From an uncultured Nitrospiraceae bacterium (GTDB lineage: Bacteria; Nitrospirota; Thermodesulfovibrionia; Thermodesulfovibrionales; SM23-35): 64,000 bases of DNA. Position numbers and translations under genes: made by a program. How positions within the stretch are numbered: position 1 is the first letter of the stretch; every line of letters starts with the position of its first letter. The DNA lies in contig CAVSHB010000002.1 in the NCBI GenBank assembly GCA_963727775.1, forward strand, positions 239,428 through 303,427. The letters are read 5' to 3'. The notes under the pieces are model-generated. The model had not been told where the DNA came from. It ran no database searches and saw nothing but the letters and a program-made list of their open reading frames with translations. Below, piece by piece: positions 1 through 23,133 of this stretch.

Positions 1-650
1 CGAGAACTTCACTTATTGTTCTTACAAACGGCACCAGACTCAAAGACTTAGAGTTGGTAAGGCAGCTGACCATGGTCGGGCATCCCGCCCTTACGTTTGC
101 TATCCCGCTTTATTCCGATGTAGACGTAATCCATGACAAGATCGTAGGTACCCCGGGGAGCTTTCATGCGGCCATCAGGGGGCTACACAATCTGGCCCTT
201 TTCCGACATTTCGTCGAAATAAGAACCGTTGTCACCGCGATGAACTACACAAGGCTTCCCAAACTGGCCGAATTTATCTATCGGAACTTACCTTTTGCTG
301 CCCATATTGCCATCATGGCACTTGAAATGACAGGAAATGCCAGAGAGAACTCCGAGGCCATATGGATAGATCCATTCGATTATACCCGTGAACTGGAGAT
401 GGCAGTGCGTATATTGAATAGGGCAGGGCTGAATGTCTCCATCTATAATCACCAACTCTGTGTTGTCCCTCAAAACATGTGGCGCTTCTGCAGACAGTCA
501 ATATCAGCCTGGAAAAACTCCTATATTGGGCAATGTGGCGAATGTCTGGTAAAACAAAAATGCGGCGGTTTTTTTACTACTGGCGGGCAATACATCAGCC
601 AGCATATCAACCCTATATCGCATCTGTATGACCAACCTTTTGCGCCTTGA
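1..650 (+). CDS. radical SAM/SPASM-type maturase of a His-Xaa-Ser system (HxsB/HxsC family), 5'-partial (continues upstream of window)
   Basis: Frame is open from position 3 (LIVLTNGTRLKDLELVRQL...). Cys-rich C-terminus (CGECLVKQKCGG) is typical of SPASM/twitch radical SAM enzymes. It sits immediately upstream of a His-Xaa-Ser repeat peptide gene. Confidence 0.55.
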   Translation, partial: RTSLIVLTNGTRLKDLELVRQLTMVGHPALTFAIPLYSDVDVIHDKIVGTPGSFHAAIRGLHNLALFRHFVEIRTVVTAMNYTRLPKLAEFIYRNLPFAAHIAIMALEMTGNARENSEAIWIDPFDYTRELEMAVRILNRAGLNVSIYNHQLCVVPQNMWRFCRQSISAWKNSYIGQCGECLVKQKCGGFFTTGGQYISQHINPISHLYDQPFAP

Positions 651-729
651 CATTGCGCCTTGCTTTTGTTGACAAACACTCGTCTGTGTGATATAAACTA
701 AATAAGAGTACGATTTAAGAGGTGTATTT

Positions 730-1005
730 ATGAAATCATGGATTAAGAAAACAGCGTTAGGTCTAGTTGCCGCCCTTTCCTTTTTTGGCGTTAATGTTGG
801 CTCGACCAATGCCTCCCTTCAGAGCGATACGGTAAAGATCAAGGAAAACACGCCGCTGTATCTCGAACACGCGTCAAACATCCTCACACATGCTCAGGAG
901 AGAAACAATTTTTTGGCAGATCACGAATCGCACTACTCTCATGACAGCCATTCTTCCCACTCCTCTCATGACTCACATTACTCACATTATAGTTCACGCG
1001 ATTAG
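730..1005 (+). CDS. hxsA: His-Xaa-Ser repeat protein (HxsA-like): signal peptide plus C-terminal HYS/HDS/HSS repeats
   Basis: N-terminal signal peptide MKSWIKKTALGLVAALSFFGVNVGSTNA. C-terminus HESHYSHDSHSSHSSHDSHYSHYSS carries 7 His-Xaa-Ser triplets. RBS-like aagagg lies upstream. Confidence 0.6.
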   Translation: MKSWIKKTALGLVAALSFFGVNVGSTNASLQSDTVKIKENTPLYLEHASNILTHAQERNNFLADHESHYSHDSHSSHSSHDSHYSHYSSRD

Positions 1006-1043
1006 TTAGGAACGGAAAAGAGCATGGGATAGACATAAGGCAG

Positions 1044-1097
1044 GTCTGGGCCTATTTATAATTTTCATGATGTCCAGCCCAGAACCGCCTTTATTTT
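1044..1097 (+). terminator. possible rho-independent terminator downstream of hxsA (stem tctgggc/gcccaga followed by a T-run)
   Basis: Inverted repeat ggtctgggc...gcccagaacc followed by ctttattttgt. The loop is long, so this is weak. Confidence 0.25.
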
Positions 1098-1290
1098 GTC
1101 AGTCCACCTGAAAGTCCGCAGTGCGGACTTCTATCGTATGGTGTCGAATACGGGTACAAACATAGATTTGCAACCATTTTGCCAGTTCACTTCTTTCTTC
1201 ATCAAAGTCGCAAAGCAGATGATTTTATTGTTATGCAAGTTTCTTCTCCAAATAAACGAATCTGCGTCACATTAATCAGGATTATATAAC

Positions 1291-1599
1291 TTAACTAAAG
1301 TCTTTCTTTTCAAACCCGGACCGAACTACGCGACCATTGCTCCCGCAGGAGCAGCCCAAACCTACAGGCCTATATGTGCGAGGGCATTGAGCAGTGAAGC
1401 ACAGGAAACCTTGATCATCCCCCAGAATCAGAAAGAGTGAACTTGAGGCCGCCAAAGCGCAGACGAACAAGACAGCAATGACCTTGTATTGCGAGTGGTG
1501 AGCAGGCCAAAGCTGGAAAAGATGGCAAGCCAGAAAACCAACAACACCAAGGGCGGCATAGGGAACGAGCGCTGCCCTAACTGCTGCGAGAGAAGCCAA
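1291..1599 (-). CDS. hypothetical small membrane protein
   Basis: ORF with two hydrophobic segments; no recognisable family. Confidence 0.25.
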   Translation of the reverse strand: MASLAAVRAALVPYAALGVVGFLACHLFQLWPAHHSQYKVIAVLFVCALAASSSLFLILGDDQGFLCFTAQCPRTYRPVGLGCSCGSNGRVVRSGFEKKDFS

Positions 1600-1935
1600 C
1601 GCATATCGTAAATTTCAGCTCTGATCTGCAGGGCTTGAGACTGAAGCCGGCGCCGGTCGTCGTTTCTTCGGTCCCGCTCTCCGCCTGGCCAACCTTCTTT
1701 GCTGCAATCGTGTTTTTCTCTTCCGGACGCACCCGTTCAATCGAGGCAATGAGAGAGCGATGCAGAATATCCCTGGCTTCTCTCGTCTCCAGCCTGTATC
1801 GTATCGCGCCATGGTGTTGTCAAGCATAACAATCTTCAAGACCGTTTGTTTGATCTCGCTGTTCATTGTAATCTGGCTCATGATTCACTTTCATTTCTTC
1901 ATGAGTCCAAATTACAGCGCCACCTGCTATGAAAC

Positions 1936-2481
1936 CTACGGCAAATAGACTCCGGAGCCTATGAAATAGTCTGTTCCCGGGATGGGCTCTACATACCCAA
2001 GCTTTTTGAACTCCTCTTTGGATCCGGGTTTGACCCAATAAAACTCAACAAACCCGCCGCCCTTCTTTGCAGCGGCGCTCAGCTCCCGGATGACAAATTT
2101 CCCCTTTACGTCTTTGTGATCGTAGAGGTTCTTTCCCTGGAGATTCTTTTGGGTCCCGTGGGCAATATTCAGACAGCTGTAATCATAGACATAAAAATAC
2201 CCTGACTTATCTGCATAAAAACGTATGGGGTCGACAAAGGAACATATCATATCAACGCGCTCATTTTCGTTCTTTACCCCCTTGAGGATCTCTCCCAGTC
2301 CGACAGCAGTCGCGTGAACCACTGTCTTTGCTGTTTCCTTGTAACACTCCATGGATGTCTTATCATTTCCATAGCCGACCCCGGCGCCCATGATAACTAC
2401 TGCCACGGCGATAATCAATATTGCCAATAGCTGCCCCGAAGTGTTTCTCACCTTTTCTTTCTTACAATAAGTCATTGCCAA
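1936..2481 (-). CDS. membrane-anchored single Cache (sCache_2-like) domain protein
   Basis: N-terminal TM anchor. YFYVYDYSCLNIAHG...GGGFVEFYWVKPG...YFIGSGVY motifs are typical of the Cache_2 sensor fold. Confidence 0.55.
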   Translation of the reverse strand: MAMTYCKKEKVRNTSGQLLAILIIAVAVVIMGAGVGYGNDKTSMECYKETAKTVVHATAVGLGEILKGVKNENERVDMICSFVDPIRFYADKSGYFYVYDYSCLNIAHGTQKNLQGKNLYDHKDVKGKFVIRELSAAAKKGGGFVEFYWVKPGSKEEFKKLGYVEPIPGTDYFIGSGVYLP

Positions 2482-2536
2482 TCCTCCTTTTATTTATTAC
2501 GAATAGGACGCTCCTGCAAAACGTCCGTAAAGACTG

Positions 2537-4012
2537 TCAAAAGTGAGGAGCCTTGACCGGCAGCTTCGCGGAATCGATGCCTTCGCACAGCGCGTTATCC
2601 ACCGTCAGGTTGCCCTTGTCGTCAAGCCTCACCGTCCAGATAGTGTCGTAGTCGCTGCTCGGCCAAGCGGGCGCCTTTGGGCCTACATAGGTCGGGAAAT
2701 GGGTCGAGATGAGCGCATCTATTATCGGCGGGAAGTGAGCGTGCTCCCACGCGAGCAGCACGGTCTGGTTGGAGAATTTGCCGCCTTTGAAGAAAAAATC
2801 GCTGGTGAGCTGGGGCAAGTTCGTATCGAATATCTCCAAACCTGCAACCAGATAATAGGGCAAGTTGTTCGCTATTGCATATGGCTGGACCGTTAACGAG
2901 GGTCTGACATACGAAAAATCGGAATTACCCAGAATGGCCTCAGCGCCCGGGGAAACCTGTGCGGGGTCGATCGAATAAACCTGCGTGGGACTGATTTTGC
3001 CTCGCAGGGCATTTGGAAGATACAGCGCGCGCCATTGCCCCGCAGCCACAAAGTTGCCGTCGTCCCATCCGCGCACCGGATGCGCCTCCGCGTGCCGGAT
3101 CATGTAAACCGTCTCGTTGGTGTTGATGGCATTGATCCCCCCCGTCGCCGAGATTTTGAAAAGCGAAGGCGTCGTATCCGGGCCCGGGCATGATGCGCCG
3201 GCTGCCGGTGAGGGCAGCACGGGGTATGTGGAAGGCGGGTCCAGATTGCTGTTGTAGGTAACCAGGCCGGCGCTTCCGGACGGCGAGATTGAGATCGCAT
3301 AGACATAGTTGGGGCCCATATAGGTCGCAGGGAGATCCAGGTTGTAATTCTTGAGATTTTTGATATTTTCCATCAGGGCGTGGATGGTCTCCCACGGCGC
3401 AGAGAAGACATAAAAACCCGGCAGGGTTGTATTGATAAGACCGGCTGCCAAGGTTTCGTTGTTGCCGTCTGTATCGTTGAAATCCAGTCCCTGGCAACCC
3501 TGGCAGACTACCAACGGCGCAGCAACTCCGCCGGGTACAGTCCCTGACGCATACGATGCATTAAGCGGGTAGCTATTGCCGGTAATTAAGGGCGAGCCCG
3601 CACCGCCCGCACCGGTTAGACTTATATGGTTGAGAAGGGCGAACTGCTGGATGGTCATCAGCGCCGCCATATCGGGATAGTTGTTTTCGGTCTGCAGATG
3701 GGTCATCGGCTCAAGCGCATAGATGCGGTTTACATTCCTTGTCCCCAATACTCGCTGCTTCAGATACCCGGCCATGAGGAGCGTCCGCTGTAAACCCTGA
3801 CTGGTGAGATTTGCGGTGCCCGGATCGACGTCACCGGACGCATGGTAAGCCAAATCATCGCTTACCACGAAGATCAGATTGATATTGTCGGCCTTCAACG
3901 GAGCTGGATGTTTATTATCGCCGGAAGATCCTCCTCCACATCCCGATAAAAGGGAAATCAGTAGCGCCGTTATAAAGACGCCTGTTCGCAGAACAGAAAT
4001 CATTTGCTTCAT
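2537..4012 (-). CDS. lipoprotein with histidine phosphatase superfamily domain
   Basis: Signal peptide plus lipobox LLSGC. RHAEAHP motif (RHG-type catalytic His) in YMIRHAEAHPVRGWDDGN. Confidence 0.55.
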   Translation of the reverse strand: MKQMISVLRTGVFITALLISLLSGCGGGSSGDNKHPAPLKADNINLIFVVSDDLAYHASGDVDPGTANLTSQGLQRTLLMAGYLKQRVLGTRNVNRIYALEPMTHLQTENNYPDMAALMTIQQFALLNHISLTGAGGAGSPLITGNSYPLNASYASGTVPGGVAAPLVVCQGCQGLDFNDTDGNNETLAAGLINTTLPGFYVFSAPWETIHALMENIKNLKNYNLDLPATYMGPNYVYAISISPSGSAGLVTYNSNLDPPSTYPVLPSPAAGASCPGPDTTPSLFKISATGGINAINTNETVYMIRHAEAHPVRGWDDGNFVAAGQWRALYLPNALRGKISPTQVYSIDPAQVSPGAEAILGNSDFSYVRPSLTVQPYAIANNLPYYLVAGLEIFDTNLPQLTSDFFFKGGKFSNQTVLLAWEHAHFPPIIDALISTHFPTYVGPKAPAWPSSDYDTIWTVRLDDKGNLTVDNALCEGIDSAKLPVKAPHF

Positions 4013-4043
4013 CTGTCATATCCTTCTGTTTTGCATATGAACA

Positions 4044-5474
4044 TCAATAGGAGTTCACACAATCGATAAGCTCTTGTTTCCCCATATATCCAATACCGCA
4101 CCAGTAAACCGGCCAGGTTGTGTCGGTAATTGGATTAAAAGTATTCGTAATGGGAATAGAGTAATTGTGCCCTGAGAAATAGTGCCCTCTGTAAAATGCC
4201 TGTTTTGCGCTATTCGTGGCAAGAACCGGAAAAAGATGTGACAGGGAATCGTTCAGAAGACCATGTACGGAATACGCTTTTGAAAAAGTATAATAGCTAT
4301 TGAACTGTTCCGGGTTAGCAGCGAGGTCATAGTTGAAGGAGGTATAGTCCGTGGCCTTCAAGGTGGCGCGGGAAAACGTAAAGACCTTGAATGCCGGGTT
4401 ATTGCCGAAATAGGGAGCAATGCTGGGCGTTGTCACAGCCGGATTGCCGGGCGACATGATGCGATACTCGTCCATATGGGTATGGGCGATAAACGTCTGG
4501 GTTATAAGACCCGGATATTTTGCAAGTATTTTCAAAAAACTTTCTTGATAGTCCTCATTCCACATCATTATGGCAGTTGAAATGTGACCGTTGGAATCAA
4601 CAGCTTGTGCGGTTGAATATTTATCCGCGCCCGGAGGCACGTGCATTAAGAGCCATACCTTCTTGCCCCCGGCCTGGGCTGAAGCAAGCGTTAAATCAAA
4701 CCAGTGAAGTTCAGCGGTTACCGCACTCGAAGTGGTGTCGCCGAAATAAGGGGAAAACTCGAATGTGTTGAGTCCTATAACCATCAAATCTGTGCCGGTC
4801 GGCTCTGCGGAATAATATCCTCCGCTCGTAAACGCATCAAGAAATGTCTGATGATCTACAGTGCCGTTCACAAAGTTTGTGTAATAGAGTTCCGCAGTAT
4901 CGGAAAGAAAACTGCTGTCGGGTCCGAGGCCTGTGTATGAATCGCTATTTCCAACGGCGAACATGACGGGAATGTTTCCCACATACGACCTCACCTGCTG
5001 CATAAAAAAGGCAATAGTCTTGTCGGTAAAGGCCTTCATGGCAGCGACGTCTGCAGGGGTTGGGTTTTGGGCGTTTGCGGGGTCGTAAAGTCCGTAGAAC
5101 GTTTGAGGAAGGTAATGCCCCAGCATGTCGCCGGTAAAGATAATCAGCGGACTGGCTCCCATATTCTGCCTTATGCTTGAGAGAGCGATCGCAAGCAAAG
5201 GGTAGTTGGTATCGCCGCCCCATACCGAAGGCGCTGATATGCCCGATGACTTAAAAATACTCTCCCACTCGCCGGCATCCGCAGCGACAAGCTTCGGAAA
5301 AAGAGACGGGTCATAGAAAGGATTGAAATGGACATCCGAGAAAACAAGCACCGGGAAGTCTTTGTTGCTGGTGTTGTTGGGCCCGCTGTCACCACCGCAC
5401 GCAGCCAGTTGCAATTGGAGTATCAGGGCCAAAATCAAACCGAAAAGTCTTATATTTCTATAGCACGTGTTCAT
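4044..5474 (-). CDS. lipoprotein, calcineurin-like metallophosphoesterase
   Basis: Lipobox LAACGG. Metallophosphoesterase motifs VFSDVHFN, FTGDMLGH, GNSD, LLMHVPPG, AHTHMDE. Confidence 0.7.
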   Translation of the reverse strand: MNTCYRNIRLFGLILALILQLQLAACGGDSGPNNTSNKDFPVLVFSDVHFNPFYDPSLFPKLVAADAGEWESIFKSSGISAPSVWGGDTNYPLLAIALSSIRQNMGASPLIIFTGDMLGHYLPQTFYGLYDPANAQNPTPADVAAMKAFTDKTIAFFMQQVRSYVGNIPVMFAVGNSDSYTGLGPDSSFLSDTAELYYTNFVNGTVDHQTFLDAFTSGGYYSAEPTGTDLMVIGLNTFEFSPYFGDTTSSAVTAELHWFDLTLASAQAGGKKVWLLMHVPPGADKYSTAQAVDSNGHISTAIMMWNEDYQESFLKILAKYPGLITQTFIAHTHMDEYRIMSPGNPAVTTPSIAPYFGNNPAFKVFTFSRATLKATDYTSFNYDLAANPEQFNSYYTFSKAYSVHGLLNDSLSHLFPVLATNSAKQAFYRGHYFSGHNYSIPITNTFNPITDTTWPVYWCGIGYMGKQELIDCVNSY

Positions 5475-6026
5475 AACTGCCTCCCATAATGTTATTGAGC
5501 GCTAAAACCCGGCTAATATTTTATGCGTCAGTTCTTTTTGTCCGGTGGCTCTTTTCCCCCATGTTTAGAACACTATCAGATTCTGCTTCAAGTAGCAACT
5601 CATCGAAAGCGCAAAGCGCACCTTGCCTTTTGGGTCTCCCGAACCTATCCGTTGTCAAAGGAATAACATCGTGCCTGAGAAGTTGCGCAAGACAGCAGGC
5701 AGTCCGCTCATTGAAGGTTATGACAGAAGACAGCACACCACTGAGCGATGTCGTTTTACGCTTCAGCCCGCATCCCGGCATGACTATACTGCCACGGGAT
5801 GCGGACTCCCGCCTGATCTTCAGCTATTGAAAAGGTTAGGGTAAAATCTTCATTGTTGATAATTGATTTTCAAAAGAAACACGCATACTTGTCGCGTTCA
5901 ATAATTGGGAGGACTTCTGTGAGCAGTTCAAACTTGCACCAGGCTCAGACATTGCTGTATCCTAAAACTCAGACATACTGCATAAGATCTGCTCACTGAA
6001 ATCCCCATTCATAGGAGAGAACGCTA

Positions 6027-6440
6027 ATGAAGAAAAAGCCTGTTTTCGGGTTTCTTTTTTTTGTTTTGATGGTTTCGGCGGCACTATGGCCCATAAGGTC
6101 TGCGCGAGCCGAGGAGGTAGTGCGGGCAAAGCTTACCAACGGCCTCAGGGTAGTGATCGTCCGGAATCCGCTTGTGCCGGTAGCCACGACAGTGGTCAAT
6201 TACCTTGTCGGTTCCGATGAGGCTCCCGCTGGATTCCCTGGTATGGCTCACGCACAGGAACATATGATGTTCCGTGGAACCCCCGGGCTCACAGCCGACC
6301 AGCTTGCGCGCATTACGGCGGAGATGGGGGGCAATTTTGACGCTGACACCCAGCAGAATGTAACACAGTATTTTTTTACCGTGCCGGTCGAAGACCTGGA
6401 TGTGGCCTTGCACATAGAAGCAATACGGATGAAAGGCGTC
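6027..6440 (+). pseudogene. M16 (pitrilysin/insulinase) family zinc peptidase, N-terminal fragment truncated by IS insertion
   Basis: Signal peptide; HxxEH zinc motif (HAQEHMMFRGT). The reading frame runs directly into the IS terminal repeat at 6441. Confidence 0.7.
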
Positions 6441-8151
6441 CTAGGAGTCTGTCGGACTTGAATTGCTGTTTTTGACAGCGGTTGGAATCCGAGAGAGTCG
6501 ATTGTAGTTATTTTTCATGATTTGATCGTCTGTCATCGGTTCTTTCCTGCCGGTGTTTTGTTGGATACATTATGCCATCGCCATTTTCAGGCGCCTACCT
6601 GGCTGTTCCTCAATGCATGCAGCCTTTTGATGTTCCATGCAATGCAGATCATATCCCACTCGCCATTGACTGCAGTAAAACCACGCAACAGGAATCGGTC
6701 AAATCCCATAGCTGCCTTGATTACCCCAAACGCCGGCTCCACAGTACTCTTGCGTATCGCATAAATTGCCTTACCGGCAACTGTCTTCAACCGATGTTTC
6801 ATTCTTGTCACTGCATCAGCATCAACCGGCAATGGAGGCGGTTCGACGAATCGCTCCCATAAAGGCTGATTATGACTCTGCCGATCTACTGCTATATATG
6901 GCTCTATTCCTTTGCTCTCACATTCTTGCACATTTGCTTCGCTGTAATACCCGCTGTCGGCTATTATAGTTTTTACTTTGCCAAGTTGTTCGGGCAGATA
7001 TGTAAGCGCTTCAAGCGCTGGTTTCATCTGCTGTTTGTCATTGGATTGTTGTGTTACATGCGTTGCGACAATAAGCATTGTTTCTGTATCCACGGCTGCT
7101 TGAGCATTATAAGCCTGCTTGAATCCTCCACCCGATGCCGGCATTATGCGAGATTCTTCATCGGTCAGATTGACCTGATCTTTGTCAGTTGGCCCGGCTG
7201 CAGGCGGCTTGGGTCCTTTGCCTCGGGGTTTCTTGCCGCTCTGCTTTTGTTTGGCTACACGCTCTGCCTGTTTCTTTTCACTGTCGGCTTGTTCCATTGC
7301 ATGCCGCTCTGCCGCACGGCGCTCTATCTCAGCTTTTGCTTCAGCTATCATTTTCAGCCGCTTCTCTCGCCGCTCCAGCTCTTCCGGGATGTTCATGCCG
7401 TCAGGAATGTCAGCTTTGTCAGCAGCCTCAGCTTTCTTCATCAGTTCCGCCACTTCCACTTTCAACTTATTCTCTATTTTGCATGCATGCCCGTAGCTCA
7501 ACGCCTTGTGCTTTGAGGCATTGGCTTTCATTTTGGTCCCATCCAAGCTGACCGTGCCTAACTTCAATACCCCGGTTTCTGCTGCTATCATTAGTATCTG
7601 CACAAACAGTTCTTTCAGCTTAGGCAAAAACCGACGTCGAAAGGTTGCTATTGTGTCATGGTCAGGGTGACTGTTGGCTGCCACATACCGGAATGCTACA
7701 GAGTCGTACGTGCTACGCTCTAATTGCCTGCTCGAAAAGACTCCCGTCGCATATCCGTAAAATAATAATGCCACCAGCATCTCAGGGCTGTATGCCTCAC
7801 TGCCTCGTCCTGCATAATCATTTTTCAACCGGTCAAGATTAAGCTGATCCACTATCTCTACGACAAATCTCGCCAAGTGACCCTCGGGCAACCATTCCTG
7901 CACCGACGGCGGAAATAAATATATCGTCTCTCTGTCACATTGTTTGAACATTATGCTGATCTCCTGTTGTTCATTCTTATGCCGCTTGTCTATTATGCCA
8001 TAAGGAACGCCCATGCAGGTCTGTCGGACTTAGATAATTACAGGCCGAAAAGATTTCTGCTGCCCAGTTTGCAATAAAGGTTCTTAAGAGACTGCCGTGT
8101 CCTTCAAGAAGTAAACTTTTCAGAAATGTTGAAAGTCCGACAGACTCCTAG
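6441..8151 (-). mobile_element. IS1182/IS5-like insertion sequence, copy 1 (1711 bp, perfect 19-bp TIR CTAGGAGTCTGTCGGACTT)
   Basis: Identical TIRs at 6441-6459 and 8133-8151. 100% identical to the copies at 42603-44313 and 59330-61040. Confidence 0.85.
6587..8014 (-). CDS. DDE transposase, IS1182 family (IS5 superfamily)
   Basis: 475 aa; DSGYYSEAN and C-terminal KRSTVEPAFGVIK...RFLLRG motifs typical of IS1182-type transposases. Confidence 0.85.
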   Translation of the reverse strand: MGVPYGIIDKRHKNEQQEISIMFKQCDRETIYLFPPSVQEWLPEGHLARFVVEIVDQLNLDRLKNDYAGRGSEAYSPEMLVALLFYGYATGVFSSRQLERSTYDSVAFRYVAANSHPDHDTIATFRRRFLPKLKELFVQILMIAAETGVLKLGTVSLDGTKMKANASKHKALSYGHACKIENKLKVEVAELMKKAEAADKADIPDGMNIPEELERREKRLKMIAEAKAEIERRAAERHAMEQADSEKKQAERVAKQKQSGKKPRGKGPKPPAAGPTDKDQVNLTDEESRIMPASGGGFKQAYNAQAAVDTETMLIVATHVTQQSNDKQQMKPALEALTYLPEQLGKVKTIIADSGYYSEANVQECESKGIEPYIAVDRQSHNQPLWERFVEPPPLPVDADAVTRMKHRLKTVAGKAIYAIRKSTVEPAFGVIKAAMGFDRFLLRGFTAVNGEWDMICIAWNIKRLHALRNSQVGA

Positions 8152-8424
8152 GTGGAATCGTATATTACTTAGAACCCCCCTGGCTATGAGGTCACTGATA
8201 GACCAAAATTCTTTACTGGCATTGCGAGCCTTACACTGCTGTGCCTGACGAACACCATTCTTTTGAATGATCCAAAGATCGACTCCTTGCTCGTCATCAC
8301 CGACGCCCTCAATGGTGACAGATTTAATTTTCTCTTCAAGAAGGGAAAGAAGTTGAGTGGCAACCCATCGGCCTTCATACCGGTTGCCAAGTTTATCCGC
8401 CAATCCTCCTGATTCAAATGGCAT
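8152..8424 (-). pseudogene. N-terminal fragment of an unknown gene whose frame runs into the right end of IS copy 1
   Basis: ORF MPFESGGLADKLGNRYEGRWVATQLL... reads through into IS sequence (..HLGVCRTFNISEKFTS). Unrelated to the M16 peptidase on the other flank. Confidence 0.4.
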
Positions 8425-8689
8425 AGTTTGTTAATGATAATATGACCGCTTTGCTGAATACAAGAAGGCAACTCTTTTGTCGGCGATTAGGTCAAAGTGC
8501 AAACGCAGTCCGTGGGATCAGGTGTTTATTCTTTTCTGACAAAGCTTGTTGAGTGTGCCCCTGTAACAATTTCCGTTTCTAACCTGCAGCGTGGTCACGG
8601 TGCTCTGAAGGTTCGATTACTGTGAGCAAGTAGCACCGCCACACCTGAAAGCCCGCATCAGTGTAAGATAAGAATCCTTTTTCTACTAT

Positions 8690-9022
8690 TCAACGGTAAT
8701 ATTCGCTGATTAGCTGATTTTGATAAGAGCGGGCTTTTCTTTCTTTTCTCCTCTCCCGTGTAATAACCCCCACAAGAATTCCCATTCTCCCTAAGAATAA
8801 TATTACGAACGCCCAGCGCATAGTGGTATTTATATCGTATGGGTCTCGTTCAGCCTGGGTAAAATCTACGTTCATGTGTTTAAAGCCTCTGTCCATCTTT
8901 TCTTCGAGCCTCACCATCTCAGTTTCGATGTCGCTATCCTTGGGACGATCCGCGGCAAATAAAAGCGAAGGGTAAAAAACTAAGTAACTCAATAATAAAA
9001 CAAATGTTGTTTTCGTAACCAT
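8690..9022 (-). CDS. hypothetical secreted/membrane protein
   Basis: Signal-peptide-like N-terminus and a second hydrophobic segment. Confidence 0.3.
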   Translation of the reverse strand: MVTKTTFVLLLSYLVFYPSLLFAADRPKDSDIETEMVRLEEKMDRGFKHMNVDFTQAERDPYDINTTMRWAFVILFLGRMGILVGVITRERRKERKARSYQNQLISEYYR

Positions 9023-9274
9023 ATCCTATATACATAAATATTCCACTCCAGCCGAAACAAACAAATAAATTTCAATTTCGGCGAAAAAGTGGGTGTAAGT
9101 AACTTGACAAATGGTCTGCCCCAATTTATATACAGCAAGGACAAAAAAAGACATAAGAAGGAGACACCATGAAGGCTCAGTTAAGAGGTGCATTTATCCA
9201 GGGATACATGTTGGGTGAAGATAAAAAGCCTTGAGCCCGCGCATAGCCCCAAAAGAGAAAGGAGACTTTTATAG

Positions 9275-9875: not shown

Positions 9876-10868
9876 ATGAAACAGATGAAATCAGACCTTA
9901 AACCTTATGAGCAAGTTAAAACCTTCTTTGTCCTTGATTCCTCCGATATGAGGAAGACCAGAGACCAACGGTCTTTTCTTGCCCTAAACTTGTCCGACAA
10001 GAGCGGCCAAATCAAGGGATACATCTGGGATGACCCCGAAGAGAAGGCGGAAGATCTGCGGGGCGTGTCATACGTATATGTAGAAGGAAAGACGAAACCG
10101 CATAACGGTACACTGATATTGTCGATCGAAGAGATAAGGTCGGCCCGCGAAGAGGAAATTGTTACAGCAGATTTTTTGGAGGTGGTTCCGGGAGGGGTGG
10201 ATCTTTGGATGAACTCCTTACATGAGAAGATCGAGACGATCGAAGATATGAATTGCCGATTGATTCTGGATTCGCTGTTTTCGGATCAAAAGTTTCTGGA
10301 AGACTTCAGAATCGCGCCGGCCGCTATGACCGTGCATCACAATTATGTGGGCGGGCTGGTTGAACATTCAGTTAACACCATGTCACATGCAGCATACATG
10401 TCTGATAAATATCCTGCGCTGCTGGACAGGGATCTGCTTCTGACAGGGTCTCTCCTGCATGACATCGGAAAAACAAGGGAGTTGACCTCCGGAATAACAA
10501 GGTCGTATACCACGGAAGGCAAACTCCTAGGACATATTTCGCTTGGGGTCATGATCCTCGATGAGAAGCTTCGTCTCATGAAAAGATTCCCGGAGGATCT
10601 CGGGCTGCTCCTGACGCATATGATCCTATCTCACCATGGAAGTCTCGAGTTTGGCAGCCCTGTCAAGCCGGCAACTCCAGAGGCTGTTGCGCTTCATCAT
10701 ATTGAAAACACGGACGCTAAAATGAACCACCTTTTCTGCCATCTGAAGGACTCCGACCCGGAAGGCGCATGGAGTTCCTATGACAAGTACCTCGCATCAG
10801 AAATCTATCAAAGAAAACCGAAGAAGGAAATTGCTGACCGGTTAAGGGAGGTGGGCGCGTATGAGTAG
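9876..10868 (+). CDS. YhaM-like OB-fold plus HD-domain phosphohydrolase (3'-5' exonuclease family)
   Basis: N-terminal OB-fold region. HD motifs VEHSVNTM...SLLHDIGK...HMILSHHG. RBS ggaaggagg. Confidence 0.6.
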   Translation: MKQMKSDLKPYEQVKTFFVLDSSDMRKTRDQRSFLALNLSDKSGQIKGYIWDDPEEKAEDLRGVSYVYVEGKTKPHNGTLILSIEEIRSAREEEIVTADFLEVVPGGVDLWMNSLHEKIETIEDMNCRLILDSLFSDQKFLEDFRIAPAAMTVHHNYVGGLVEHSVNTMSHAAYMSDKYPALLDRDLLLTGSLLHDIGKTRELTSGITRSYTTEGKLLGHISLGVMILDEKLRLMKRFPEDLGLLLTHMILSHHGSLEFGSPVKPATPEAVALHHIENTDAKMNHLFCHLKDSDPEGAWSSYDKYLASEIYQRKPKKEIADRLREVGAYE

Positions 10869-11148
10869 TCGCGGCAGAGAGCAAAGGAAGGTAACAATGC
10901 AAAAGGTAAATGCGGAAGATACGCTGGAAAATAAACCGGAAGTGATTTGGCACCTGAATATAGATCAGATCGACGAGATCAGTGGTAATGTGAGTTTTAC
11001 CATTGCTGTTCTGGATGCTATTAGTGTAATGGGTACCGCCTGTGGGAATCTTGAGATTAAAGGGCGAACATTGCTGCGTCTCGCGTCTGAAGCAGAAAAA
11101 AGAATGGAGCGCGTCAAAGAAATCATGACTGCCAGTAAAATTTACTGA
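10861..11148 (+). CDS. hypothetical protein
   Basis: ORF overlapping the previous stop; no family recognised. Confidence 0.25.
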   Translation: MSSRGREQRKVTMQKVNAEDTLENKPEVIWHLNIDQIDEISGNVSFTIAVLDAISVMGTACGNLEIKGRTLLRLASEAEKRMERVKEIMTASKIY

Positions 11149-11296
11149 AAACACGGATGCTAAACGGAGGAACTCTCAAAAGAATTATTTTCCGGGATAG
11201 GCTGACTATTCACAGGAGTGTTGGTAATAATTGGCATCTGCTTCCCTGGGATGCATGTCAGTTTATAAGTGAAAAAGGATTGATGGAGGAGAGAAC

Positions 11297-11911
11297 TTGA
11301 AAGTTGCTATTTACGGGAGAGTCAGCACTATAGACAAGGGGCAGGACCCTGAGATGCAGATGAAACCCCTTCGGGAGTATCGTTTGGCACGAGGATGGGA
11401 ACTTGAGGGGGAGTATGTTGATTATATTACCGGCGTCAAGGATCGCAGGCCCAAGCTCGACTTGCTCATGGACGCTGCAAGGAAAAGACAGATCGATGGC
11501 GTCCTTGTGTGGAAACTGGATCGCTTCGGGAGATCTCTGAAGCATCTTATTGCCACCGTTGATGAGCTTAATAGCCTGGGAGTCGGGTTTGTGTCCTACC
11601 AGGAGAACATTGACCTTACGACTCCTGTGGGCAAGCTTATGTTTCATATTATTGGTGCGATGGCCGAGTTTGAACGCGAATTAATCAGGGAAAGAGTTCG
11701 TGCAGGCATTGCAAACGCAAGAACAAAAGGAAAGCAGATCGGCAGGAGGGTACTTTCTCCGATAAACCGGCGTAAAATCATCGAGGCCTATGAGCAGAAT
11801 CCCGGTCTATCAATTCGGCAGATTGCAAAGGAGACAAAGCAAAAGCCCAGCACTGTTCACAAAACCCTATCACTTTTGAGAGCAGGAAAGATAGACAGAG
11901 AAGGGTTTTAG
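11297..11911 (+). CDS. serine recombinase (resolvase/invertase family) with C-terminal HTH
   Basis: MKVAIYGRVST...GVLVWKLDRFGRS catalytic-domain motifs; C-terminal HTH. Confidence 0.8.
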   Translation: MKVAIYGRVSTIDKGQDPEMQMKPLREYRLARGWELEGEYVDYITGVKDRRPKLDLLMDAARKRQIDGVLVWKLDRFGRSLKHLIATVDELNSLGVGFVSYQENIDLTTPVGKLMFHIIGAMAEFERELIRERVRAGIANARTKGKQIGRRVLSPINRRKIIEAYEQNPGLSIRQIAKETKQKPSTVHKTLSLLRAGKIDREGF

Positions 11912-21059: not shown

Positions 21060-22472
21060 ATGCAAGAATCGCTTCAAAACCGGGCGCGGCACCTATATCA
21101 GGTTGAAGGGTTGAGCCTGAATCAGGTAGCGACGAAGCTGGGCATATCGAGAAAAAAGGTTACCCGCCTCATTCGGCAAGACGACACCAGGAGAAGATCC
21201 TCCGGTAACATCCTGGCGCCCTATGCGCGGTTAATTCAGCAGTGGTACACGGAATATCCGTTTCTGCAGGCCATACAGGTAATGGAGCGGCTGAAGGGCT
21301 ACGGGTATGAGGGAGGGTATACGGCGGTGAAGGATTACACGCTCCCATTAAGAAAGAAGCGGAAGGGCAACTCCTTCCATGCGCTGGAGTTTCTTCCAGG
21401 GGAAGAATCGCAGGTTGATTGGATGCAGAGGAGCATGCCTTTCGGGGTAGTCTACGGGTTCGGCTACATCCTGTCCTATTCGCGGTACCTTTACGCTCAC
21501 TTCTATCTGAGGAGCTCTATGGAGTTTTTCCTGGACGGCCATATTGAGGCCTTCAAAGAAATAGGAGGTGTCGCCAACAGACATGCTTATGACAATCTCA
21601 AGTCCGTAGTCATAAAGAGAAAACCGGAGATAACTTACAATGCTCGTTTTTTGGACTTTGCACGGCACTATAATTTCTCTATCCGTGCCTGCAATCCTGG
21701 CAAGCCTAATGAGAAAGGCAGGGTTGAGCGGGTCATCAGAGACATTGAAAGCTTCCTCGTCATCAATACCTTCGCCGATATCGACGATCTTAATAAAAGA
21801 TTCGGCCTCTGGCGCATACAGAGAAATGCCAGGATTCACCGATCCACGGGAATGCCTCCTGTTGAGGCGTTAAAGCAGGAGAGACTCATAGCTCTCCCCC
21901 AAATCCATTACCTGCCTTACAGACAGGAGCCGGCATCCATCAACAAGACGTGCTTTGTGGAGTTCGACACCAACCGCTACTCAGTGCCATCCCAGTACGG
22001 AGATATGCCCTGCGACATCTTTGGGTATCCTCAGCACATAGAAATAGCGGTGCATGGCAGAAAGATAGCGACGCACAAACGGGTATTCGACAGAAAACAA
22101 AAGATAGAACATCCTTCTCACCGCGAGAAACTTCTCAATATCACTCCCCACTATAAATACAAAAGGATGCACCAGCTTCTGAAGTCCATGGACAAAAACA
22201 TCGAACACTTCCTCAACCGCGCTGAACAAGAGGGACAGGATCCTCTTGAGGTTGCTTACGAACTGTTCAAACTTCTTAAAGGCATAGCCAGGGAGACACT
22301 GATATCGGCGGTCAAGGCCGCCATAAGCATCGATACCTATAGAGTGACCTATATCCAGGGGCTTCTGGGTCCGGCGGGCAATCAGGACAATCCCGTGCAT
22401 CCCCAGAACCCGGGGCTGTTACATATCTCATATGAAGGGAGGCAACTGAGCGATTATGATGAACTTATCTGA
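21060..22472 (+). CDS. istA: IS21-family transposase IstA
   Basis: N-terminal HTH; DDE integrase-like core; 470 aa. Confidence 0.9.
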   Translation: MQESLQNRARHLYQVEGLSLNQVATKLGISRKKVTRLIRQDDTRRRSSGNILAPYARLIQQWYTEYPFLQAIQVMERLKGYGYEGGYTAVKDYTLPLRKKRKGNSFHALEFLPGEESQVDWMQRSMPFGVVYGFGYILSYSRYLYAHFYLRSSMEFFLDGHIEAFKEIGGVANRHAYDNLKSVVIKRKPEITYNARFLDFARHYNFSIRACNPGKPNEKGRVERVIRDIESFLVINTFADIDDLNKRFGLWRIQRNARIHRSTGMPPVEALKQERLIALPQIHYLPYRQEPASINKTCFVEFDTNRYSVPSQYGDMPCDIFGYPQHIEIAVHGRKIATHKRVFDRKQKIEHPSHREKLLNITPHYKYKRMHQLLKSMDKNIEHFLNRAEQEGQDPLEVAYELFKLLKGIARETLISAVKAAISIDTYRVTYIQGLLGPAGNQDNPVHPQNPGLLHISYEGRQLSDYDELI

Positions 22473-23133
22473 GCTGTGGAGGCACTTCAGGCTCCTTGCG
22501 GATCTTGAAGCTCTTTCAAAAGAACAAAAGGAGTTTATGTTGAAGTTCCTCACCGAGGAGTATCATCGAAAGGAGTTAAAAAGGATCCAGTACCTCATGA
22601 ACATGTCCGGCATCAAGAGAACAAAGATCCTCGATGACTTCGACTGGAAATATAATCCAAAGATACCAAGGGACAAGATCATAGAATACATGAACACCCA
22701 GTGGCTTAAGAAACCCAGCAACCTTGTGCTCATAGGCCCGGCCGGTGTCGGTAAAACCCATGTCGCAACCGCACTGTGCCATGATGCCCTTACCAAAGGC
22801 TGTCAGACGGTCTTTCTTACCTTGTTTGACCTCACCGCCAAAATGGCGAAGGCCAAGAGCATCTACAGCTTCATCGAATACCACGCGCGGGCAGCCGTTT
22901 GGTGTCTGGATGAGATCGGCTATGTGATCCCGAGCAAAGAACAGGCAGACTGCATCTTCCAGATAATCTCAAAAAGGGCGGAAGTGGGCACGACCATCGT
23001 CACCACCAACCTTGTACCGTCAAACTGGGGGAAGGTGTTTGATACCGTGACTGCATCGGCGATTCTTGATCGGCTCAGCATGAACGGAAAGTTCATCACC
23101 TTCGAAGGAAGGTCCTATAGAAATAGGCAGTAA
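22456..23133 (+). CDS. istB: IS21-family ATP-binding helper IstB
   Basis: Walker A GPAGVGKTH; Walker B CLDEIGY. Overlaps the istA stop. Confidence 0.9.
   Translation: MMNLSELWRHFRLLADLEALSKEQKEFMLKFLTEEYHRKELKRIQYLMNMSGIKRTKILDDFDWKYNPKIPRDKIIEYMNTQWLKKPSNLVLIGPAGVGKTHVATALCHDALTKGCQTVFLTLFDLTAKMAKAKSIYSFIEYHARAAVWCLDEIGYVIPSKEQADCIFQIISKRAEVGTTIVTTNLVPSNWGKVFDTVTASAILDRLSMNGKFITFEGRSYRNRQ

What the first reader, a model, noticed from the sequence alone, without database searches (positions are those of the whole stretch)
1..1005. His-Xaa-Ser system: secreted peptide with 7 tandem His-Xaa-Ser triplets next to a radical-SAM/SPASM enzyme
The 91-aa product has a signal peptide and a C-terminus consisting almost entirely of HxS triplets (HYSHDSHSSHSSHDSHYSHYS). 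The upstream partial gene has radical SAM/SPASM character (Cys-rich CGECLVKQKCGG tail). This matches the rarely studied Hxs arrangement of an HxsA substrate with paired rSAM maturases. Its chemistry and function are unknown. It resembles a RiPP or metal-binding peptide maturation system. Only the 3' end of the locus is inside the window.
Basis: partly seen in the sequence, partly recalled or inferred. Interest (0 to 1): 0.55.

Follow-up and report, generated by a model that had tools for sequence, protein, structure and literature searches.

The report
Hxs system with short Tyr-rich HxsA
The window holds the last part of a known four-gene His-Xaa-Ser (Hxs) cassette, a system recently shown in E. 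coli to block phage DNA entry, but its secreted repeat peptide is a short, tyrosine-rich, non-basic form with no cell-wall anchor, and no curated model recognises it.

Summary
Window 3-650 (+) is the C-terminal 215 aa of HxsC. An overlapping public contig, identical over 2,585 nt, supplies the rest: hxsD-hxsB-hxsC-hxsA. HxsB and HxsC pass the curated NCBIfam cut-offs. HxsD misses its cut-off by 2 bits.

The claim that function is unknown is out of date. Li et al. 2026 showed that the E. coli HXS system is an antiphage system. There HxsB/C/D mature HxsA, adding +8 Da on the last SHxSS repeat. HxsA then acts in the periplasm against phage DNA entry.

This HxsA differs from the E. coli one. It has no peptidoglycan-binding domain, its repeats have no Arg, and it is below the cut-off of all four curated HxsA models. 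It belongs to an unannotated family of about 276 clusters. Members are about 76-108 aa, with a TPLYLEH motif and a ...SHYSHYSSR end. In every relative with enough flanking DNA the gene sits beside hxsDBC, mostly in anaerobic non-Pseudomonadota MAGs.

This is a known system with a divergent effector lineage. Interest is modest.

The parts
1..650 (+). 3' part of hxsC. It reads in frame from nt 3 and covers the C-terminal 215 codons (aa 151-365 of the 365-aa protein) plus the stop codon. It includes the C-terminal Cys cluster C-x9-C-x14-CGEC-x5-C; CGEC lies at nt 534-545.
   Evidence: TIGR03977 HxsC scores 242.3 bits over model 100-291/292 for the fragment. The full-length protein from the identical contig L001 scores 358.3 bits against a cut-off of 267.9.
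669..697 (+). Promoter-like element in the hxsC-hxsA spacer: TTGACA (669-674), a 17-nt spacer, then TATAAA (692-697), with TG at 689-690 (extended -10).
   Evidence: Read from the sequence. The consensus scan did not list it because that scan requires T at the last -10 position. Function was not tested.
717..722 (+). Shine-Dalgarno-like AAGAGG, 7 nt before the hxsA ATG.
730..1005 (+). hxsA-like gene for a 91-aa precursor. Parts: signal peptide aa 1-28 (nt 730-813); conserved TPLYLEH motif aa 41-47 (nt 850-870); predicted short helix aa 48-57; 8 HxS triplets aa 65-88 (nt 922-993); tail SRD.
   Evidence: ORF. Weak, sub-cut-off hits to HxsA4 (29 bits, cut-off 55), HxsA (22.8, cut-off 121.65) and HxsA2 (20.8, cut-off 48). 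106 homologues and 276 cluster representatives at E<=1e-10. Conserved motifs in alignment A1. The AF2 model is disordered apart from helices 2-18 and 48-57.
982..996 (+). Terminal S-H-Y-S-S (aa 85-89). This is the last HxS repeat followed by Ser, and it corresponds to the SHRSS motif that carries the +8 Da modification in E. coli HxsA.
   Evidence: The last repeat reads S-H-x-S-[SG] in 106 of 106 short-family proteins and 119 of 120 canonical HxsA proteins. The modification site is described in PMC13128918. The correspondence is an inference.
1039..1097 (+). Terminator-like hairpin: GGCAGGTCTGGGC (1039-1051) pairs with GCCCAGAACCGCC (1077-1089), followed by TTTATTTT (1090-1097).
   Evidence: RNA fold of 1003-1105 gives -26.3 kcal/mol, but the z-score is only -1.4. 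The long loop kept it out of the terminator scan. Plausible, not shown.

Best explanation
This is the 3' end of an intact hxsD-hxsB-hxsC-hxsA cassette, a His-Xaa-Ser system.

Proposed mechanism:
1. The 91-aa HxsA precursor is made, possibly from its own promoter in the 79-nt hxsC-hxsA spacer.
2. In the cytoplasm the two radical-SAM enzymes modify it covalently. These are HxsB (494 aa, SPASM-like) and HxsC (365 aa), with the small partner HxsD.
3. The most likely site is the invariant last repeat S-H-Y-S-S. In E. coli the matching SHRSS motif gains +8 Da.
4. The conserved TPLYLEH segment upstream of the repeats probably serves as the recognition (leader-like) element.
5. The peptide is then exported through its Sec-type signal peptide to the periplasm.

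By analogy with the E. coli HXS system, its role is most likely antiphage defence at the cell envelope. However, this HxsA lacks the peptidoglycan-binding domain and the Arg-rich repeats that the E. coli model relies on. The effector step therefore cannot be the same peptidoglycan-anchored, electrostatic DNA trap. It probably acts as a free His/Tyr-rich periplasmic peptide.

What is shown: gene identities, cassette order, co-occurrence and conserved motifs.
What is inferred: the modification site, the leader role of TPLYLEH, export, and the defence function.

My confidence by part: Hxs identity about 0.97; modification at the last repeat about 0.6; antiphage role about 0.5.
For: - Contig L001 is 100% identical to window 1-2585. 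It carries HxsD (48.2 bits, cut-off 50), HxsB (581.2, cut-off 370), HxsC (358.3, cut-off 267.9) and the peptide gene, in D-B-C-A order.
- Both rSAM enzymes keep CxxxCxxC (HxsB C108/112/115; HxsC C87/91/94). Both also have C-terminal Cys clusters.
- HxsD keeps the invariant D81/R85 pair, which matches E. coli D61/R65.
- Ten distinct relatives of the peptide lie next to hxsC, nine of them also showing hxsD and hxsB.
- The last repeat S-H-x-S-[SG] is universal in both the short and the canonical families, and it is the modified site in E. coli.
- E. coli HXS restricted 110 of 113 phages and needs all four genes.
- Relatives sit in mobile-element contexts: an integrase plus an S24 repressor (L002), IS21 and a group II intron (L004), an integrase (L006), HNH and UvrD genes (L007), type I restriction-modification and TnsA genes (L015), and a Leptospira phage record.
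Against: - The peptide is below the cut-off of all four curated HxsA models.
- It has no PG_binding_1 domain. The canonical Aeromonas HxsA has one, and mutating that domain abolished defence in E. coli.
- The X residues here are E, Y, D, S, S, D, Y, Y. The mature peptide has pI 6.0 and charge -4.7 at pH 7. Canonical HxsA has 43% Arg and no Asp or Glu at X, and the published model invokes basic repeats binding DNA.
- No recognisable defence genes flank the cassette in this window, and PADLOC 2.0 has no HXS model.
- Some cassettes of this family are binned to Fusicatenibacter, a monoderm with no periplasm.
- No experiment exists for any short HxsA.
Confidence: 0.6

Rival explanations
1. The cassette is a true Hxs cassette but does not act in phage defence. 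The matured His/Tyr/Asp-rich peptide would be a secreted or periplasmic metal-binding peptide, or another RiPP-like product (a chalkophore- or metallochaperone-like molecule, a redox-active peptide or a signal). The rSAM cross-links would pre-organise the His and Tyr side chains.
For: - There are 11 His and 4 Tyr in a 63-aa mature peptide, with Asp and Glu at X positions. The peptide has no DNA-friendly charge and no peptidoglycan anchor.
- Across the family X is 40% Tyr.
- HxsB's next-best matches are RiPP maturases: PapB 146.9 bits and the SCIFF maturase 117.7 bits.
- The window shows no defence-gene neighbours.
Against: - The cassette and its conserved neighbourhood hold no transporter, peptidase or metal-uptake gene.
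- The orthologous enzymes and the same terminal motif serve defence in the only tested system.
- Relatives lie in mobile-element contexts.
Confidence: 0.25
2. The locus is a broken remnant. The genome that the window comes from carries only a truncated hxsC and an orphan peptide gene, for example after IS activity, so nothing functional is present.
For: - The window starts inside hxsC.
- The region is IS-rich, with three identical IS1182 copies plus IS1380 and IS21.
- The exact HxsC protein is on record only from the 8.8-kb contig, whereas HxsA is also on record from an 891-kb contig.
Against: - L001 overlaps the window without a single mismatch over 2,585 nt and shows intact hxsD, hxsB and hxsC.
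- The in-window hxsC reading frame is open up to its normal stop, and it matches the model to its last position.
- A contig or window edge explains the truncation more simply.
Confidence: 0.04
3. The HxS run is a chance low-complexity ORF or a slippage-generated DNA repeat with no coding significance.
For: TRF reports a weak 9-nt repeat at 963-989.
Against: - A run of 8 triplets compares with a maximum of 2 in 200 shuffles, and six different Ser codons are used.
- More than 100 homologues share the same architecture and conserved non-repeat motifs.
- The gene is strictly adjacent to hxsDBC.
Confidence: 0.01

Closest known systems
E. coli HXS antiphage system (HxsD-HxsB-HxsC-HxsA; Li et al., Nat Commun 2026, PMC13128918)
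   Same: Four genes in the same D-B-C-A order. HxsB and HxsC are orthologous, both above the equivalog cut-offs. HxsD keeps the D/R pair. HxsA has a signal peptide and tandem HxS repeats that end in S-H-x-S-S, the site of the +8 Da modification.
   Different: - HxsA here is 91 aa, against 214 aa in E. coli.
- It has no peptidoglycan-binding domain.
- It has 8 repeats, against 5.
- X is Tyr, Ser, Asp or Glu rather than Arg or Ser, so the peptide is acidic rather than basic.
- Hosts are uncultured anaerobes such as Nitrospirota and Thermodesulfobacteriota, rather than Pseudomonadota (99.7% of systems in the paper's survey).
- No experiment exists for this form.
NCBIfam short HxsA variants HxsA2 (NF038296), HxsA3 (NF038309) and HxsA4 (NF038313)
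   Same: Short (about 80-96 aa) signal-peptide proteins that end in HxS repeats and have no peptidoglycan-binding domain. They are encoded next to hxsD/B/C. Examples seen here are Nostoc and Paraburkholderia HxsA2.
   Different: - The window peptide scores 20.8, 13.2 and 29 bits against cut-offs of 48, 65 and 55.
- The best E-values of 31 family members against the HxsA models are 1e-8 to 1e-9, far short of those cut-offs.
- The HxsA2 examples have Ser/Arg at X and are basic (pI 10.2 for the Nostoc one). This family is Tyr-rich and has its own TPLYLEH motif.
- The HxsC here is not HxsC4 (46.7 bits against a cut-off of 500).
- The partner HxsB and HxsC group apart from those of HxsA/HxsA2 systems in NJ trees.
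Radical SAM/SPASM RiPP maturases (PapB ranthipeptide, SCIFF thioether, QhpD, cyclophane-forming enzymes)
   Same: HxsB aligns over its rSAM and C-terminal Cys-rich region with these enzymes at 100-147 bits. The logic is the same: a precursor peptide with a repeated short motif is modified by an rSAM enzyme.
   Different: All these matches are far below their family cut-offs. The substrate carries a Sec signal peptide instead of a cleaved leader plus a transporter. Two rSAM enzymes and HxsD are required. The chemistry (+C -4H in E. coli) is unresolved.
Prokaryotic viperins (pVip), rSAM enzymes in antiphage defence
   Same: They belong to the radical-SAM superfamily and act in defence. HxsB and HxsC give weak PADLOC pVip hits of 37-44 bits.
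   Different: The similarity is at superfamily level only. pVips make ddh-nucleotides, whereas Hxs enzymes modify a protein.

Membership tests
His-Xaa-Ser (Hxs) system | HxsC radical-SAM enzyme (NCBIfam TIGR03977, cut-off 267.9 bits) | tested here: met
   The window fragment scores 242.3 bits over model 100-291/292. The full-length protein from the identical contig L001 scores 358.3 bits. CxxxCxxC lies at C87/91/94 and the C-terminal CxxC at C328/331.
His-Xaa-Ser (Hxs) system | HxsB radical-SAM/SPASM-like enzyme (TIGR03978, cut-off 370 bits) adjacent to HxsC | tested here: met
   L001 4224-5708 scores 581.2 bits. CxxxCxxC lies at C108/112/115. The gene lies outside the window.
His-Xaa-Ser (Hxs) system | HxsD small protein (TIGR03976, cut-off 50 bits; LYW and LLNDYxLRE motifs) | tested here: inconclusive
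   The score is 48.2 bits, just under the cut-off. A precomputed Pfam PF27806 HxsD hit is on record. D81 and R85 are invariant across 8 HxsD proteins and match E. coli D61/R65, and the aromatic residue of LYW is conserved as Y/F. The motif itself reads FCNDILDEQVR.
His-Xaa-Ser (Hxs) system | Gene order hxsD-hxsB-hxsC-hxsA (99.6% of systems in Li et al.) | tested here: met
   L001 coordinates: 3852-4217, 4224-5708, 5786-6883, 6963-7238.
His-Xaa-Ser (Hxs) system | Substrate with a signal peptide and tandem His-Xaa-Ser repeats | tested here: met
   8 contiguous triplets and a classical n/h/c signal region. hhalign of the family against canonical HxsA gives probability 98.3% over the repeat region only.
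HxsA proper (TIGR03979) and HxsA2/A3/A4 (curated HMM membership) | Score at or above the curated cut-off of one of the four models | tested here: not met
   Scores are 22.8 (cut-off 121.65), 20.8 (48), 13.2 (65) and 29 (55). Among 31 family members the best E-values are only 1e-8 to 1e-9.
E. coli-type HXS effector (Li et al. 2026) | C-terminal peptidoglycan-binding domain, essential for defence in E. coli | tested here: not met
   Pfam gives no domain on the 91-aa protein, and only 3 residues follow the repeats. The Aeromonas HxsA control gives PG_binding_1 at E 4e-10.
E. coli-type HXS effector (Li et al. 2026) | Basic (Arg-rich) HxS repeats proposed to bind DNA | tested here: not met
   X here is E, Y, D, S, S, D, Y, Y, and the mature peptide has charge -4.7. 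Canonical HxsA has 43% Arg and 0% Asp/Glu at X. The short family has 40% Tyr and 7% Arg/Lys.
E. coli-type HXS effector (Li et al. 2026) | Last repeat S-H-x-S-S, the site of the +8 Da modification | tested here: met
   The sequence motif SHYSS is present at aa 85-89, and S-H-x-S-[SG] is universal. The modification itself cannot be tested here.
E. coli-type HXS effector (Li et al. 2026) | Confers phage resistance by blocking DNA entry; rSAM-dependent +8 Da modification and N-terminal processing | not testable with these tools
   This needs expression, phage challenge and LC-HRMS.

The most novel reading that the evidence does not exclude
The short, Tyr-rich, anchor-less HxsA lineage has about 276 clusters, mostly in anaerobic non-Pseudomonadota, and its own HxsB/HxsC clade. 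It would use the same rSAM maturation chemistry as E. coli HxsA but a different effector mechanism. For example, it could be a cross-linked His/Tyr peptide that binds metal or targets an envelope or phage component, rather than a peptidoglycan-anchored polycationic DNA trap. If so, the HxS repeat plus its modification would be the functional core of Hxs systems, and charge-based DNA binding would be a feature of the enterobacterial branch only.
Probability: 0.35. Interest if true: 0.55.

Novelty: new variant of a known kind. Interest (0 to 1): 0.33.

Why it matters
The Hxs system went from a 15-year-old bioinformatic curiosity to a proven antiphage system only in 2026. Its proposed mechanism rests on one E. 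coli effector with basic repeats and a peptidoglycan anchor.

This locus represents a sizeable, unannotated lineage that keeps the enzymes and the modified S-H-x-S-S motif but drops both of those effector features. That gives two practical uses:
- It is a natural test of which parts of HxsA are essential.
- It is a small 63-aa soluble substrate that may be easier to reconstitute in vitro than E. coli HxsA, which formed inclusion bodies.

It also shows that the reported 99.7% restriction to Pseudomonadota probably reflects searching with the long HxsA only. Public annotation labels these peptides 'hypothetical protein'.

Tried and rejected
- Rfam scans found nothing. The scan of 1-3000 (E-value mode) and of the whole window (gathering mode) gave no RNA element; the only hits were two chance-level ones, one of which reflects the terminator-like hairpin.
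- The consensus promoter/terminator scan gave nothing above shuffle expectation near the genes. The promoter-like site at 669-697 was read by eye and is untested.
- AlphaFold2 of HxsA with the family alignment gave pTM 0.24, disordered apart from the signal helix and one short helix. No fold search was therefore made.
- tblastn of the peptide against 72,556 plasmids found no match. The low-complexity filter may contribute to this.
- PADLOC 2.0 has no HXS model, only weak pVip superfamily hits, and found no defence genes next to the cassette in the window.
- I first concluded that the whole short family has acidic repeats. The exhaustive profile search showed this was a bias of word-seeded hits. 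Family-wide, the X positions are Tyr-rich and near neutral (34 proteins net positive, 29 net negative, 61 neutral). Only the window's close relatives are acidic.
- Small ORFs in the 930-nt gap after hxsA (1006-1935) have no Pfam match above its gathering score; the one weak hit (GPI2, 19.6 bits against a cut-off of 24.4) is noise.
- The host organism could not be named. The window has no rRNA or tRNA, and the best genome-collection relative of the cassette is a Nitrospirota MAG at 49% (HxsA) and 68% (HxsB) identity.

Full report
**1. What is in the sequence**

Window 730-1005 (+) is an ATG-initiated ORF of 91 codons. An AAGAGG Shine-Dalgarno sequence lies at 717-722.

The product is MKSWIKKTALGLVAALSFFGVNVGSTNA|SLQSDTVKIKENTPLYLEHASNILTHAQERNNFLAD-HES-HYS-HDS-HSS-HSS-HDS-HYS-HYS-SRD.
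- The N-terminus has the classical signal-peptide layout: a basic n-region, a 15-residue hydrophobic core with mean hydropathy 1.67, and small residues at -3 and -1 (T-N-A).
- This run is the only HxS run of length 2 or more in all six frames of the 64-kb window. In 200 shuffles the longest run was 2.
- The eight Ser codons come from both codon families (TCG, TCT, AGC, TCC, TCT, TCA, TCA, AGT). The periodicity is therefore kept at the protein level and is not a product of DNA slippage.

Upstream, the frame from nt 3 to the stop at 648-650 encodes 215 residues. They match NCBIfam TIGR03977 (HxsC) from model position 100 to 291 of 292 at 242 bits.

**2. The rest of the locus**

An exact-protein look-up of the peptide returned an 8.8-kb public contig, L001, from Logan run ERR11594402. 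It is identical to window 1-2585 without a mismatch and extends 6.2 kb upstream. It carries, in order:
- an ECF sigma factor;
- a TPR/trypsin-like protease;
- HxsD, 121 aa (TIGR03976, 48.2 bits against a cut-off of 50);
- HxsB, 494 aa (TIGR03978, 581 bits against 370);
- HxsC, 365 aa (TIGR03977, 358 bits against 268);
- the peptide gene.

Both rSAM proteins keep the CxxxCxxC triad and have C-terminal Cys clusters. HxsD keeps an invariant Asp/Arg pair (D81/R85) that aligns with the D61/R65 pair mutated in E. coli. The window therefore holds the last 1.0 kb of a complete canonical hxsDBCA cassette.

The 79-nt hxsC-hxsA spacer contains TTGACA-17 nt-TATAAA with an upstream TG (669-697). A hairpin plus T-tract follows the stop codon (1039-1097). 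Both are plausible expression signals for the peptide gene, and neither was tested.

**3. Relatives and co-occurrence**

The peptide has 106 homologues in the 90%-clustered collection. A word-index-free profile search of 1.84 billion cluster representatives found 276 at E<=1e-10. Nearly all are 76-108 aa, and none of the 106 homologues, where source names are available, carries an Hxs annotation.

The family alignment shows this layout: a signal peptide; a conserved I-x-E-x-T-P-L-Y-L-E-H motif; about 15 variable residues; L-A-[DW]; 5-10 HxS triplets; and an almost invariant end...S-H-Y-S-H-Y-S-S-R(Y).

Every relative with enough flanking DNA lies next to hxsC, and wherever the DNA held reaches far enough, next to hxsD and hxsB too.
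- Order D-B-C-A: MAGs of Nitrospirota, Cloacimonadota, Syntrophaceae, Thermodesulfobacteriota and Desulfuromonadaceae.
- Order A-D-B-C: Campylobacterota, Dialister and Fusicatenibacter.

**4. What is known**

Full-text search found one functional study, Li et al., Nat Commun 2026 (PMC13128918). Its main findings are:
- E. coli hxsD-B-C-A restricted 110 of 113 coliphages, without abortive infection and without blocking adsorption.
- All four genes are needed.
- HxsA (214 aa) has a signal peptide, five HxS repeats rich in basic residues, and a peptidoglycan-binding domain.
- HxsB, HxsC and HxsD are needed for N-terminal processing and for a +8 Da (+C -4H type) modification located on SHRSS, the last repeat.
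- Mutating the peptidoglycan-binding domain, any single repeat, or the S/H/S residues of SHRSS abolishes defence.
- Periplasmic HxsA binds DNA, and the authors propose electrostatic interception of entering DNA.

So 'function unknown' is no longer true for the kind.

**5. How this one differs**

*Architecture and composition*
- The window peptide has no Pfam domain. Only three residues follow its repeats.
- The canonical Aeromonas HxsA has PG_binding_1. In 120 canonical HxsA proteins a median of 115 residues follow the repeats.
- At the X positions canonical HxsA has 43% Arg, 39% Ser and no Asp or Glu.
- The window peptide has E, Y, D, S, S, D, Y, Y. Its mature form has pI 6.0 and charge -4.7 at pH 7.

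*A correction to my own first reading*
- I first read the whole short family as acidic. The exhaustive search corrected this.
- Family-wide, X is 40% Tyr, 15% Ser and 7% each for Arg/Lys and Asp/Glu, which is near neutral.
- The window's subclade sits at the acidic end.

*Relation to curated models and to canonical HxsA*
- The peptide and its relatives fall below the cut-offs of all four curated HxsA models.
- Profile-profile comparison with canonical HxsA aligns only the repeat region.

*What is shared*
- In both families the last repeat reads S-H-x-S-[SG]: 106 of 106 short-family proteins and 119 of 120 canonical ones. This is the E. coli modification site.

*Partner enzymes*
- In NJ trees of HxsB and of HxsC from 16-17 loci, the partners of the Tyr-rich short peptides form one group. 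It is separate from the partners of long or short Arg/Ser-type HxsA.
- The sample is small and there are no bootstraps, so this is only suggestive.

*The picture is a continuum, not a dichotomy*
- Short HxS peptides also occur unannotated in RefSeq plasmids. The Methylobacter one has ...PFVLEH... and an ...SSRY end; another is in Sphingobium pTK1.
- Others are annotated as HxsA2, in Nostoc and Paraburkholderia.

**6. Mechanism**

- Best supported: cytoplasmic maturation of the 91-aa precursor by HxsB, HxsC and HxsD at the terminal SHYSS. TPLYLEH would act as the recognition element. The peptide would then be exported to the periplasm.
- AlphaFold2 predicts only the signal helix and one short helix (aa 48-57). 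The repeats are disordered, as expected for an rSAM substrate.
- A defence role is the default by orthology and by the mobile-element contexts of relatives: integrases, an S24 repressor, IS21, HNH, UvrD, type I restriction-modification genes, and a Leptospira phage record.
- The effector step cannot be copied from E. coli, because the anchor and the positive charge are missing.
- The main rival is a non-defence metal-binding or RiPP-like peptide. It is not excluded.

**7. Verdict**

The system is a known kind that is now experimentally characterised. This locus belongs to a divergent, unannotated effector lineage of it. The surprise for a specialist is modest. Its value is as a natural variant for testing which HxsA features matter.

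Noticed in passing
window 6441-8151, 42603-44313, 59330-61040: Three 100% identical 1,711-bp copies of an IS1182-family element, each with a 475-aa transposase on the minus strand (380 bits against a cut-off of 270). This points to recent transposition, or to an assembly that is rich in repeats.
   Followed up: partly
window 21060-23133, 25424-26953, 34100-35482: More mobile elements. There is an IS21-family transposase (217.7 bits) followed by a 225-aa ORF that I did not identify. There are also two different IS1380-family transposases (138.9 and 201.8 bits). The 64-kb window is unusually IS-dense.
   Followed up: partly
window 1006-1935: About 930 nt after hxsA have no convincing gene. The small ORFs there have no Pfam match above its gathering score (one weak sub-cut-off hit), and the public gene calls on L001 also leave the region empty. 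Its content is unexplained.
   Followed up: partly
window 1936-5474 (minus strand): Three exported proteins lie downstream: a 181-aa sCache_2/dCache_2 protein, a 491-aa lipoprotein-like protein with no family hit, and a 476-aa calcineurin-like metallophosphoesterase. This set of neighbours is not seen next to the cassettes of the four relatives whose called genes were listed.
   Followed up: partly
L001 1568-3673 (upstream of hxsD, outside the window): An ECF sigma factor and a 492-aa trypsin-like (HtrA-type) protease with TPR repeats lie directly upstream of hxsD on the same strand. They are absent from the other relatives' cassettes for which called genes were listed, so they are probably unrelated. 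However, E. coli HxsA undergoes an unexplained N-terminal cleavage.
   Followed up: no
L014 3760-3963 and 4018-4248: The Desulfuromonadaceae MAG cassette carries two tandem short HxsA paralogues after hxsC. Their repeat runs are HNSHNSHYSHYS and HYSHSSHASHHSHYS.
   Followed up: no
L012 (Dialister MAG) and L013 (Fusicatenibacter MAG), 6001-9150: Nearly identical A-D-B-C cassettes sit in two human-gut MAGs binned to different Firmicutes. One of them, Fusicatenibacter, is a monoderm without a periplasm. This suggests either horizontal transfer or mis-binning, and it is awkward for a strictly periplasmic mechanism.
   Followed up: no
L018 2382-2975 (Sphingobium pTK1); L019 2352-2624 (Methylobacter plasmid): RefSeq annotates short HxS-repeat peptides next to hxsB/hxsC as 'hypothetical protein'. 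In Sphingobium an HxsD-like protein gets the same label. The Methylobacter peptide shares the P-F-V-L-E-H motif and the SSRY end of the window's family.
   Followed up: partly
P0424, P0440: Two family members have degenerate repeats in which Ser is replaced, for example HYQHYSHWAHRSHWAHYSHYNYYR, while keeping the TPLYL leader motif. The Ser position is therefore not always required.
   Followed up: no
L016 6515-7051, L019 5606-6322, L007 1-50: Thermonuclease (SNase) family genes lie next to or near Hxs cassettes in three unrelated loci: a Nostoc plasmid, a Methylobacter plasmid and a Thermodesulfobacteriota MAG. This could be an accessory nuclease, but no statistics were done.
   Followed up: no
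window 9876-11911: A 330-aa OB-fold plus HD-domain protein gives only weak Cas3-HD-like PADLOC hits. Beside it lies a 204-aa serine resolvase, next to the first IS1182 copy.
   Followed up: no
window position 1: The exact HxsC protein is on record only from the 8.8-kb Logan contig. The exact HxsA is also on record from an 891-kb NCBI/ENA contig. The long contig probably starts inside hxsC, so the truncation may be a contig end rather than only a window edge.
   Followed up: no
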